DNA of 64,000 bases, taken from a virus. Under the pieces are notes generated by a model. That model saw only the letters and a list, made by a program, of their open reading frames with translations. It was not told where the DNA came from and ran no database searches. The position numbers and the translations under genes were made by a program. This document shows positions 22,147-22,224 of the stretch, piece by piece (within the stretch, counting starts at the first letter, position 1; each line of letters opens with the position of its first letter). The stretch lies in the IMG/VR virus record IMGVR_UViG_3300045988_047070; one strand, 5' to 3'.

Positions 22147-22224
22147 GGAAGAGTAATAGCCTGATAAACTATACTAGGTACTATATCGATGCAATATAGG
22201 GCAGTTCGATTCTGCACTCTTCCA
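22147..22224 (+). tRNA. tRNA-like gene, non-canonical core (a CTGATAA loop would read GAU/Ile)
   Basis: The acceptor GGAAGAG/CTCTTCC forms 7 bp. The T arm is GGCAG-TTCGATT-CTGCA. The first arm, ATAGC-CTGATAA-ACTAT, sits where a D arm should be. A second hairpin, CTATAT-CGATGCA-ATATAG, abuts the T stem. Confidence 0.55.

What the first reader, a model, noticed from the sequence alone, without database searches (positions are those of the whole stretch)
22147..22224. A tRNA-like gene has an Ile(GAU)-type anticodon loop where the D arm should be
The acceptor GGAAGAG/CTCTTCC forms 7 bp, with discriminator A and a T arm carrying TTCGATT. Directly after U8-A9 comes ATAGC-CTGATAA-ACTAT. Its 7-nt loop CUGAUAA is a textbook anticodon loop with anticodon GAU, and no GG-containing D loop is present. 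Next come an 8-nt spacer and a perfect 6-bp hairpin, CTATAT-CGATGCA-ATATAG, which abuts the T stem. The element is either a D-arm-less tRNA with a long extra arm or another non-decoding mimic. It ends 19 nt before the PolB start codon.
Basis: seen in the sequence. Interest (0 to 1): 0.65.

Follow-up and report, generated by a model that had tools for sequence, protein, structure and literature searches.

The report
Rearranged non-decoding tRNA-like RNA before PolB
A gut crAss-like phage carries, just upstream of its DNA polymerase gene, a conserved RNA that keeps the acceptor stem and T arm of a tRNA but has a rebuilt middle, so it most likely serves as a tRNA-shaped RNA-processing signal and not as a decoder.

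Summary
The window is a crAss-like phage (Suoliviridae), 96.7% identical to cr10_1. ARAGORN (standard, intron and D-armless mitochondrial modes) and Rfam do not call the element.

It is real. Twelve distinct variants in three subtypes, from about 50 gut-phage contigs, keep four helices: 99.6% of cells are paired and 9 pairs show double changes.

It occupies a fixed "tRNA slot":
- a stop codon,
- a GC-rich hairpin,
- 3-5 nt,
- the tRNA or tRNA-like element,
- 14-22 nt,
- the PolB ATG.

In relatives the slot holds canonical tRNA-Val, tRNA-Glu or tRNA-Arg. Others hold covarying tRNA-likes whose anticodon arm is replaced by a triloop, a GAAA tetraloop or a 12-nt loop.

The closest complete genome has no canonical tRNA. 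The window has three more anticodon-defective tRNA-likes.

The UGAUAA loop is invariant. However, it sits on a 3-5 bp stem only 2 nt from the acceptor stem. In the window's own sequence a competing stem is energetically favoured.

Best reading (about 0.45): a tRNA-derived, non-decoding module kept for RNase P / RNase Z-type processing of the PolB transcript. A decoding D-armless tRNA-Ile is unlikely (about 0.05).

Classification: new variant of a known kind.

The parts
22125..22142 (+). GC-rich hairpin GTGCGTC-GAAA-GACGCAC. It lies 3 nt after the stop codon of ORF 21273-22121 and 4 nt before the element.
   Evidence: Equivalent hairpins lie 3-5 nt upstream of the tRNA or tRNA-like element in relatives, whatever occupies the slot. 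The role as a 3'-end-protecting hairpin after RNase P cleavage is inferred.
22147..22153 (+). Acceptor stem, 5' strand, GGAAGAG.
   Evidence: Pairs with 22217-22223. Five of the 7 pairs change on both sides across subtypes, and pairing is 100%.
22154..22155 (+). Linker N8-A9 (TA).
   Evidence: Position 8 is U, or G in some variants (L006, L015, L121, L128). A9 is invariant.
22156..22172 (+). Arm 1: ATAG-CCTGATAAA-CTAT. It sits in the D-arm position and carries the invariant UGAUAA (the Ile-GAU-like loop CUGAUAA).
   Evidence: The stem is invariant. It gains a whole A-U pair in L018/L024 (ATAAG/CTTAT). The 31.39 position is C.A, U.G or U-A. The commonest variant has A10.C26. The competing stem GCCUG/UAGGU is favoured energetically in the window sequence only.
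22173..22180 (+). 8-nt spacer ACTAGGTA with invariant GG (22177-22178). It may stand in for the D-loop G18-G19.
   Evidence: The consensus is A-N-N-N-G-G-N-A in all three subtypes. The role in the elbow is inferred.
22181..22199 (+). Arm 2: CTATAT-CGATGCA-ATATAG. It sits in the anticodon-arm position.
   Evidence: Pairing is 100%, and 2 pairs change on both sides. The other subtypes carry a 16-18-nt hairpin inserted in its loop, ahead of a conserved G-N-Y-GCA.
22200..22216 (+). G linker, then T arm GCAG-TTCGATT-CTGC, then A.
   Evidence: Two of the 4 T-stem pairs covary. The loop TTCGAT is invariant. The flanking G and A are invariant.
22217..22224 (+). Acceptor stem 3' strand CTCTTCC, plus discriminator A.
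   Evidence: The discriminator is A in all subtypes. No CCA is encoded; the next bases are CGA.
22225..22246 (+). 19-nt A-rich leader CGAGATTAAAACCACAACC and the PolB start codon.
   Evidence: The distance from discriminator to ATG is 14-22 nt (mode 19-21) in almost all of the ~90 surveyed loci (L034, with a shifted match start, gave 28), and the leader always starts with C.

Best explanation
The element is a tRNA-derived structured RNA that no longer decodes. It is transcribed on the coding strand as part of the replication-gene transcript.

It folds into a four-way junction. That junction keeps the 12-layer acceptor/T-arm stack, a canonical T loop, and a GG that could close the tRNA elbow. 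The D and anticodon regions have been rebuilt.

These retained parts are what the host tRNA-maturation enzymes recognise. The proposed mechanism has two cuts:
1. RNase P cuts at G22147. This leaves the upstream mRNA ending in the GC-rich hairpin.
2. An RNase Z-type cut follows the discriminator A22224. This frees the PolB mRNA with a roughly 19-nt A-rich leader.

The element would then act as tRNA 'punctuation' for PolB expression.

Shown: the structure, its conservation and covariation, the synteny, the fixed spacing, and the absence of a usable anticodon arm.

Inferred: the cleavages themselves and their effect on PolB expression.
For: 1. Conserved structure. Alignment A1 is 99.6% paired, with 9 pairs changed on both sides (acceptor 5/7, arm 2 2/7, T stem 2/4). 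This compares with 0/500 shuffles and 23-56% for slid controls.

2. Fixed architecture in almost all of the ~90 PolB loci examined: a tRNA or tRNA-like element followed by 14-22 nt and the ATG (one locus with a shifted match start gave 28); many loci also have a hairpin 3-5 nt upstream.

3. The occupant of the slot varies.
- Canonical tRNAs occur: Val(CAC), Glu(UUC), Arg(UCU).
- So does a second family whose anticodon arm is a 5-bp/UAU, 4-bp/GAAA or 12-nt-loop hairpin. That family is still 100% paired, with 9 doubly changed pairs.
- One occupant has no anticodon arm at all (cr52_1).
- Only the acceptor stem and the T arm are seen in every type examined; a GG is also present in all types examined in detail.

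4. The window has three more tRNA-likes with tetraloop or truncated anticodon arms. The nearest complete genome has no canonical tRNA.

5. Type-A arm 2 tolerates 16-18-nt hairpin insertions in its loop.

6. RNase P is documented to process non-tRNA substrates. These include tRNA-like structures, phage RNAs and polycistronic mRNAs (review PMC11143913).
Against: - There is no expression or end-mapping data, so no cleavage has been shown.
- A pure processing signal would not need sequence-level conservation of its body. Yet UGAUAA, the GG, CUAUA/UAUAG and GNYGCA are invariant, while only about 52% of 4-fold degenerate PolB sites are invariant across the three subtypes. The acceptor stems, by contrast, change freely. 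This hints at a sequence-specific partner or a specific tertiary fold.
- In L018/L024 a canonical tRNA-Val and a T-arm minihelix already lie just upstream. The element is therefore not needed there as the sole processing site.
- The T stem has only 4 Watson-Crick pairs.
- The fold of arm 1 is ambiguous in the window's own sequence.
Confidence: 0.45

Rival explanations
1. A protein- or enzyme-binding tRNA mimic. The tRNA-shaped scaffold displays a tRNA-Ile(GAU)-type anticodon loop, and other invariant motifs, to a specific partner. Candidates are a host anticodon-directed nuclease or modification enzyme (decoy), IleRS, or a phage protein such as PolB (a translational operator).
For: - UGAUAA is invariant in all three subtypes, while loop position 32 and the acceptor stems vary.
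- Three-way invariance at neutral-like sites is only about 52%.
- Variants tend to close the 31-39 pair (U.G in L019, U-A in L128), which gives 5 bp plus CUGAUAA.
- The discriminator is always A.
- The element lies directly before PolB.
Against: - The same slot holds unrelated tRNAs or anticodon-less tRNA-likes in sister phages that have orthologous PolB. A PolB-specific operator is therefore unlikely.
- The commonest window-type variant weakens the arm (A10.C26).
- The window sequence prefers a fold that destroys the loop.
- No candidate partner has been identified.
Confidence: 0.17
2. A 5'-UTR structure that stays on the PolB mRNA. It is cut only at its 5' side or not at all, and it stabilises the mRNA or tunes translation without being released.
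For: - The element is at a fixed short distance (14-22 nt) from the ATG in almost all surveyed loci.
- A stable stem sequesters the 5' end.
Against: - Canonical tRNAs in the same slot must be released in order to function.
- The trailer always begins with C directly after the discriminator, as expected for a tRNA 3'-processing site. This last point is inference.
Confidence: 0.15
3. A decaying tRNA pseudogene in a recombination-prone tRNA array, with no function of its own.
For: - The intergenic region holds tRNA remnants. One is an isolated T-arm minihelix in L018/L024.
- The slot's occupants turn over between lineages.
- The element is unannotated in cr10_1.
Against: - Every helix stays paired across three subtypes even though 5 of 7 acceptor pairs and 2 of 4 T-stem pairs have been replaced on both sides.
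- Within-subtype polymorphisms are G-C to G.U or lie in loops.
- About 72% of unpaired positions are invariant (own count from alignment A1), against about 52% at 4-fold degenerate sites.
Confidence: 0.1
4. A genuine decoding tRNA-Ile(GAU) that lacks a D arm and carries a long variable arm. It is aminoacylated and used on the ribosome.
For: - The 7-nt loop CUGAUAA is textbook: U33, G34 A35 U36, A37, A38.
- UGAUAA and discriminator A73 are invariant.
- An 8+4 acceptor/T arrangement is possible in most variants.
Against: - ARAGORN in standard, intron and metazoan-mitochondrial (D-replacement) modes, and the Rfam tRNA model, all reject it.
- The stem is 3-5 bp and is attached 2 nt from the acceptor stem. 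The anticodon would therefore sit about 5 helical layers too close to the elbow (inference from tRNA geometry).
- U8 is G in several variants.
- Arm 2 accepts large insertions.
- Sister elements are clearly non-decoding.
- cr10_1 late genes are long, uninterrupted standard-code CDSs, so there is no recoding need.
Confidence: 0.05

Closest known systems
Canonical phage-encoded tRNAs, including the tRNA-Val(CAC), tRNA-Glu(UUC) and tRNA-Arg(UCU) that occupy the same slot in sister Suoliviridae
   Same: - 7-bp acceptor stem.
- T arm with a TTCGA-type loop.
- Unpaired discriminator.
- Same strand, same position before PolB, and same spacing to the ATG.
   Different: - There is no D stem-loop with GG.
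- No 5-bp/7-nt anticodon arm lies between a D arm and a variable loop.
- Junction linkers are 2/8/1/0-1 nt, against 2/1/5/0 in a canonical tRNA.
- The Rfam tRNA model and ARAGORN do not detect it.
Anticodon-less tRNA-likes of sister crAss-like phages (types B/C/E/F here; annotated 'tRNA-His' in cr53_1) and the three other tRNA-likes in this window
   Same: - Same slot and the same retained parts (acceptor, T arm, GG).
- Loss of a usable anticodon arm.
- Structural covariation.
   Different: - Those elements keep a canonical D arm and still score 35-54 bits with the Rfam tRNA model.
- The window element has also lost the D arm architecture.
- It carries its own invariant motifs: UGAUAA and GNYGCA.
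D-arm-lacking mitochondrial tRNAs such as metazoan tRNA-Ser(AGY) (own knowledge)
   Same: Read with arm 1 as the anticodon arm, the element has no D arm, and an anticodon-type loop follows the acceptor stem.
   Different: - Those tRNAs have a D-replacement loop of several nucleotides and an anticodon stem of normal or extended length. Here the linker is 2 nt and the stem is 3-5 bp.
- ARAGORN's mitochondrial models do not accept it.
- The host is a bacterium with a standard ribosome.
tRNA-like processing modules: mitochondrial tRNA punctuation, MALAT1 mascRNA, MHV68 tRNA-like/miRNA units (own knowledge), and RNase P substrates such as tRNA-like structures, the phage P1/P7 C4 RNA precursor and polycistronic mRNAs (PMC11143913)
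   Same: A tRNA-shaped fold without decoding function, sitting at a boundary between functional RNAs. The acceptor/T minihelix is retained as the feature that RNase P and RNase Z recognise.
   Different: - No cleavage has been shown here.
- The system is a bacteriophage operon.
- The body of the element is unusually conserved at sequence level.
tmRNA tRNA-like domain, and 8/4 allo-tRNA or tRNA-Sec-type structures (own knowledge)
   Same: - Acceptor plus T arm without a normal anticodon arm, as in the tmRNA tRNA-like domain.
- A possible 8+4 acceptor/T split and a long arm abutting the T stem, as in allo-tRNA.
   Different: - There is no G3.U70, no tag reading frame, and no tmRNA call at the element.
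- Allo-tRNAs keep both D and anticodon arms.
- The eighth pair, U8-A, is lost (G8) in several variants.

Membership tests
Canonical tRNA (Rfam RF00005 / ARAGORN) | 7-bp acceptor stem with an unpaired discriminator | tested here: met
   GGAAGAG/CTCTTCC plus A. Pairing is 100% with 5 covarying pairs.
Canonical tRNA (Rfam RF00005 / ARAGORN) | T arm: 5-bp stem with a 7-nt T-Psi-C-R-A loop | tested here: inconclusive
   The loop TTCGATT is canonical. The stem is 4 Watson-Crick pairs plus an invariant G.A.
Canonical tRNA (Rfam RF00005 / ARAGORN) | D arm whose loop carries G18-G19 | tested here: not met
   The stem in the D position has the loop CCTGATAAA, with no GG. The conserved GG lies outside it, in the spacer.
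Canonical tRNA (Rfam RF00005 / ARAGORN) | Anticodon arm (5 bp, 7-nt loop with U33 and purine 37) lying between the D arm and the variable loop | tested here: not met
   The arm in that position has the loop CGAUGCA (G33, C37) and takes 16-18-nt insertions in other subtypes.
Canonical tRNA (Rfam RF00005 / ARAGORN) | Detected by the family model at or above threshold | tested here: not met
   There is no RF00005 hit even at E<=10. ARAGORN default, -ps and -i find nothing. Only forced solutions appear at -ps80, and these are mutually inconsistent. tRNAscan-SE was not available.
D-arm-lacking (mitochondrial-type) tRNA | D-replacement loop of several nt between the acceptor and anticodon stems; anticodon stem of at least 5 bp; accepted by D-armless models | tested here: not met
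   The linker is 2 nt. The stem is 3-5 bp depending on the variant. ARAGORN -mt/-mtx/-mtd find nothing.
tRNA-Ile(GAU) isoacceptor | Anticodon loop CUGAUAA and discriminator A73 | tested here: met
   Both are present, and UGAUAA and A73 are invariant. Being a tRNA-Ile also requires being a tRNA (see the rows above) and being charged by IleRS, which was not tested.
tRNA-Ile(GAU) isoacceptor | Aminoacylation by IleRS and use in decoding | not testable with these tools
   This needs aminoacylation assays or tRNA-seq.
tRNA-like RNA-processing module (punctuation type) | Acceptor/T-arm minihelix retained; anticodon function dispensable | tested here: met
   Only the acceptor, the T arm and a GG are common to the slot occupants examined.
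tRNA-like RNA-processing module (punctuation type) | Located at the boundary between two functional RNAs, on the transcribed strand | tested here: met
   The element lies between ORF 21273-22121 and PolB on the same strand. Spacing to the hairpin and to the ATG is fixed.
tRNA-like RNA-processing module (punctuation type) | Cleavage by RNase P at the 5' end and by RNase Z (or equivalent) at the 3' end | not testable with these tools
tmRNA tRNA-like domain | G3.U70 alanine identity pair and an associated tag reading frame | tested here: not met
   Pair 3-70 is A-U or U-A. ARAGORN makes no tmRNA call in the window, and no Rfam family of any kind hits 20900-22500 apart from the neighbouring tRNA-like element.

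The most novel reading that the evidence does not exclude
The element is not just a processing site. It is a dedicated tRNA mimic that presents a tRNA-Ile(GAU) anticodon loop on a tRNA-shaped scaffold. Possible roles are a decoy or titrator for a host anticodon-directed nuclease or modification enzyme, a regulator acting through IleRS, or, at the extreme, a charged tRNA with a rearranged core that still takes part in translation.
Probability: 0.12. Interest if true: 0.8.

Novelty: new variant of a known kind. Interest (0 to 1): 0.55.

Why it matters
crAss-like phages are the most abundant phages of the human gut, and little is known about how their long operons are expressed.

If these conserved tRNA-shaped elements, which have lost decoding ability, are cut by host tRNA-maturation enzymes, then this phage group uses 'tRNA punctuation' like mitochondria do. 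That would explain why tRNA-like sequences persist before the polymerase gene even where no tRNA is needed.

It would also mean that 'tRNA' and 'pseudo-tRNA' calls in phage genomes need a third category. cr53_1's annotated 'tRNA-His' is one example.

The idea can be tested directly with public gut metatranscriptomes and with simple RNase P/Z assays.

Tried and rejected
1. The MFE/RNAalifold stem GCCUG/UAGGU in place of ATAG/CTAT. It is favoured energetically in the window sequence. It is only 82% paired across subtypes and is broken in L018/L024 and L019/L022. The ATAG/CTAT stem gains a matched A-U pair in L018/L024. I rejected it as the family structure but kept it as a possible alternative conformer of the window-type RNA.

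2. ARAGORN at -ps80 forces a cloverleaf with anticodon CUA ('Pyl', amber suppressor) on the window copy. It gives His(GTG) and Thr(TGT) on the other subtypes. These are mutually inconsistent, and the window (CUA) solution breaks the covarying arm 2. cr10_1 late genes are long standard-code CDSs. Rejected.

3. An eighth acceptor pair U8-A (an 8/4, allo-tRNA-like arrangement). Position 8 is G in several variants. Not conserved.

4. Other RNA families. Rfam finds nothing at the element even at E<=10, and ARAGORN calls no tmRNA in the window.

5. A cellular homologue. A pattern scan of 185,579 species genomes gave 17 chance matches and no tRNA-like copy. The metagenome scan found copies only in human-gut crAss contigs, plus 36 chance matches.

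6. Similarity to annotated phage tRNAs. blastn of the 78 nt finds only cr10_1, where it is unannotated, and short T-arm matches.

7. Literature. Six full-text searches found no description of these elements.

8. A sigma-70 promoter or intrinsic terminator reading. Promoter-like hits are at background level. The hairpin scores as a terminator only on the minus strand.

Full report
**What the window is.** blastn of 21000-24000 against phage records gives 96.7% identity to the crAss-like phage cr10_1 (Suoliviridae, Boorivirinae, Canhaevirus). It gives 67-78% identity to many other Suoliviridae over the DNA polymerase gene. The finding lies between ORF 21273-22121 (no Pfam domain) and the family-B DNA polymerase ORF that starts at 22244. 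All genes here are on the + strand.

**The observation.**
- Acceptor GGAAGAG 22147-22153 pairs with CTCTTCC 22217-22223.
- Discriminator A is at 22224.
- TA lies at 22154-22155.
- ATAG-CCTGATAAA-CTAT lies at 22156-22172.
- The spacer ACTAGGTA lies at 22173-22180.
- CTATAT-CGATGCA-ATATAG lies at 22181-22199.
- G is at 22200.
- GCAG-TTCGATT-CTGC lies at 22201-22215, and A is at 22216.
- There are 19 nt to the PolB ATG.

Two refinements are needed.

ARAGORN finds nothing here in default mode. Run locally, it also finds nothing with lowered threshold, with introns, or in the three metazoan-mitochondrial modes that allow D-arm replacement. Rfam gives no hit in 20900-22500 apart from the neighbouring tRNA-like element, even at E<=10.

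**Is it real?** The 78-mer folds more stably than all 200 shuffles (z = -3.0). Stronger evidence comes from homologues. I collected PolB loci from IMG/VR and ran pattern scans of IMG/VR, JGI/ENA metagenomes and GTDB genomes. The element occurs in about 50 human-gut crAss-like contigs as 12 distinct sequences in three subtypes:
- window/cr10_1 type, 78 nt;
- L019/L022 type, 99 nt;
- L018/L024 type, 98 nt.

It is absent from 185,579 bacterial and archaeal species genomes.

On alignment A1 the four-helix structure is 99.6% paired, with nine pairs changed on both sides: acceptor 5 of 7, arm 2 2 of 7, T stem 2 of 4. No shuffle out of 500 reaches this, and slid controls pair at only 23-56%. Polymorphisms within the window type are G-C to G.U changes in the acceptor stem, U-A to U.G in arm 2, or lie in unpaired positions. 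This is a structured RNA under selection, not a chance hairpin set or a dead pseudogene.

RNAalifold, dominated by window-type rows, follows this.

Across subtypes the comparison goes the other way.
- The GCCUG/UAGGU stem is only 82% paired and breaks in both other subtypes.
- ATAG/CTAT is invariant.
- ATAG/CTAT acquires a matched extra A-U pair in L018/L024 (ATAAG/CTTAT).
- It is the predicted fold in L019 and in variant L128.

I take ATAG/CTAT as the family structure. In the window's own RNA the 'anticodon loop' may compete with an alternative conformer. The commonest window-type variant (cr10_1 and 10 other loci) also has an A10.C26 mismatch that shortens this arm to three pairs.

**Anatomy in tRNA terms.** The element is a four-arm cloverleaf whose junction linkers are 2/8/1/0-1 nt. 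A canonical tRNA has 2/1/5/0. Arm 1 sits where the D arm should be, and arm 2 sits where the anticodon arm should be.
- The 8-nt linker has the consensus A-N-N-N-G-G-N-A. Together with the invariant T loop UUCGAU, this suggests that the D-loop GG needed for the elbow has been relocated and not lost (inference).
- Arm 2 has the loop CGAUGCA (no U33, pyrimidine at position 37).
- In the two other subtypes arm 2 carries a 16-18-nt extra hairpin ahead of a conserved G-N-Y-GCA. It therefore cannot be a working anticodon arm.
- Arm 1 carries the invariant UGAUAA. Position 32 varies (C/G/U), and 31.39 is C.A, U.G or U-A.

Three-way invariance at 4-fold degenerate PolB sites is about 52%. Conservation of UGAUAA, GG and CUAUA/UAUAG, alongside free acceptor-stem turnover, therefore points to sequence-specific constraint on the core.

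**Context: a tRNA slot.** In almost all of the ~90 PolB loci examined, an element with a paired acceptor stem and a T arm ends 14-22 nt (mode 19-21) before the PolB ATG; the one outlier, L034, gave 28 nt because its match start is shifted. The trailer always begins with C. L031 has a roughly 135-nt version with a UGCAAAU T loop, seen by eye. In many lineages a GC-rich hairpin lies 3-5 nt upstream of the element, whatever occupies the slot.

The occupant differs between lineages.
- Canonical tRNA-Val(CAC) occurs in cr1_1 and L018.
- tRNA-Glu(UUC) occurs in L023.
- tRNA-Arg(UCU) occurs in the L028 group.
- A 59-nt element with acceptor, D and T arms but no anticodon arm occurs in cr52_1.
- A widespread family (types B/C/E/F) keeps canonical acceptor, D and T arms. 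It replaces the anticodon arm with GCUAC-UAU-GUAGU, GCUA-GAAA-UAGU, or 4-bp stems with 12-nt loops.

That last family is 100% paired with nine doubly changed pairs. In cr53_1 it is annotated 'tRNA-His'. L018/L024 carry tRNA-Val, an isolated T-arm minihelix and the type-A element in tandem.

A second slot about 1 kb upstream behaves the same way. It holds tRNA-Leu(UAA) or tRNA-Arg(UCU) in some phages and anticodon-defective versions in the window, L018 and L019.

A scan of the window for paired acceptor plus T arm finds four elements (4395, 10646, 21161, 22147). None has a usable anticodon arm. cr10_1 as a whole has no canonical tRNA.

**Mechanism.** The features shared by every slot occupant are the acceptor/T-arm stack, the T loop and, in the types examined in detail, an available GG. 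These are exactly what RNase P, RNase Z and the CCA-adding enzyme recognise (established knowledge). The review PMC11143913 lists tRNA-like structures, phage RNAs and polycistronic mRNAs among RNase P substrates.

The fixed layout is stop codon, hairpin, 3-5 nt, element, about 19 nt, ATG. It fits a model with two cuts.
1. RNase P cuts at the element's 5' end, leaving the upstream mRNA with a protective 3' hairpin.
2. A 3' cut after the discriminator releases PolB mRNA with a short A-rich leader.

Where decoding is no longer needed, the anticodon region decays or is rebuilt while the processing shape is kept. The structure, conservation, synteny and spacing are shown. The cleavages are inferred. 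I put this at about 0.45.

The unusually conserved core and the redundancy seen in L018/L024 argue that something more specific may be going on. A protein- or enzyme-binding mimic that uses the Ile-type loop gets about 0.17, and a retained 5'-UTR structure about 0.15. A functionless pseudogene (about 0.10) is disfavoured by the covariation.

A decoding D-armless tRNA-Ile (about 0.05) is disfavoured for four reasons:
- the 2-nt linker and the 3-5-bp stem;
- the G8 variants;
- rejection by all tRNA models;
- the non-decoding nature of all sister elements.

**Comparison with known kinds.** The element fails the membership tests for a canonical tRNA (D arm, anticodon arm, model score), for D-armless mitochondrial tRNAs, and for the tmRNA tRNA-like domain. 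By position and retained features it works most like tRNA-like processing modules: mitochondrial punctuation, mascRNA, MHV68 tRNA-like units, and RNase P's non-tRNA substrates. I found no description of such elements in crAss-like phages in six full-text literature searches. The element is unannotated in the RefSeq record. I classify it as a new variant of a known kind.

**Verdict.** Interest is 0.55. It is a real, conserved, previously undescribed rearranged tRNA-like RNA, and part of a systematic set of anticodon-less tRNA-likes in front of the polymerase gene of gut crAss-like phages. Its proposed processing role is plausible and easily testable, but so far only inferred.

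Noticed in passing
window 21161-21228 (+): A tRNA-like element with canonical acceptor, D and T arms (Rfam tRNA 54 bits). Its anticodon arm is UAACA-UUUU-UGUUA, and ARAGORN reports a 2-nt 'anticodon'. It is conserved in cr10_1. In relatives the equivalent slot holds tRNA-Leu(UAA) or tRNA-Arg(UCU).
   Followed up: partly
window 10646-10711 (+): A 66-nt tRNA-like element (Rfam 46.9 bits) whose anticodon arm is a 4-bp stem with a UUAU tetraloop (CUGA-UUAU-UCAG). It ends 20 nt before the ATG of ORF 10732-11046. 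ARAGORN does not call it.
   Followed up: partly
window 4395-4473 (+): A 79-nt tRNA-like element (Rfam 37.3 bits). It has an 11-nt hairpin inserted in the D loop and a 3-bp stem carrying a textbook 7-nt loop CUGCUAA (Ser-GCU type). This is another anticodon-like loop on a stem too short for decoding.
   Followed up: partly
window 9637-10512 (+); NC_055875.1 26352-26737: cr10_1 has a permuted tmRNA call (ARAGORN tmRNA*, tag GNNFVTDYTQLAVA*; Rfam tmRNA_permuted 49.6 bits). It lies next to the homologue of the 10646 element. In the window that locus carries an 809-nt replacement (9704-10512). The replacement overlaps an Rfam group I intron hit (9637-9920, 65 bits) and a minus-strand 174-aa ORF (9848-10372). 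No tmRNA is called in the window.
   Followed up: partly
window 7322-7448 and 8302-8480 (+): A Hatchet self-cleaving ribozyme (102.7 bits) and a RAGATH-9 RNA (94.8 bits) lie in the same early/replication gene region. Both are conserved in cr10_1. This phage uses several RNA-processing motifs in its intergenic regions.
   Followed up: no
window 22244-25027 (+): The PolB gene is split into ORFs 22244-23503 and 24332-25027 by an insertion. The insertion carries ORF 23600-24220, which is the same length as, and syntenic with, the HNH endonuclease that splits PolB in cr53_1. In cr10_1 PolB is one 650-aa CDS. No Rfam intron hit was found in the insertion.
   Followed up: partly
L018 2277-2483 and L024 2219-2483: Before PolB these phages carry, in tandem, a canonical tRNA-Val(CAC), an isolated T-arm 'minihelix' (GCAUAGAGG-UUCGAUU-CCUCUUGGC) and then the type-A element.
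   Followed up: partly
window 22125-22142: The hairpin before the element is preceded by AAAAA on the + strand, so it scores as an intrinsic terminator only on the minus strand. One relative (L005) has the loop inverted (TTTC in place of GAAA).
   Followed up: no
NC_055875.1 64930-65970 (outside the window's homologous part): cr10_1 encodes a retron-type or DGR-like reverse transcriptase. No link to the tRNA-like elements was examined.
   Followed up: no
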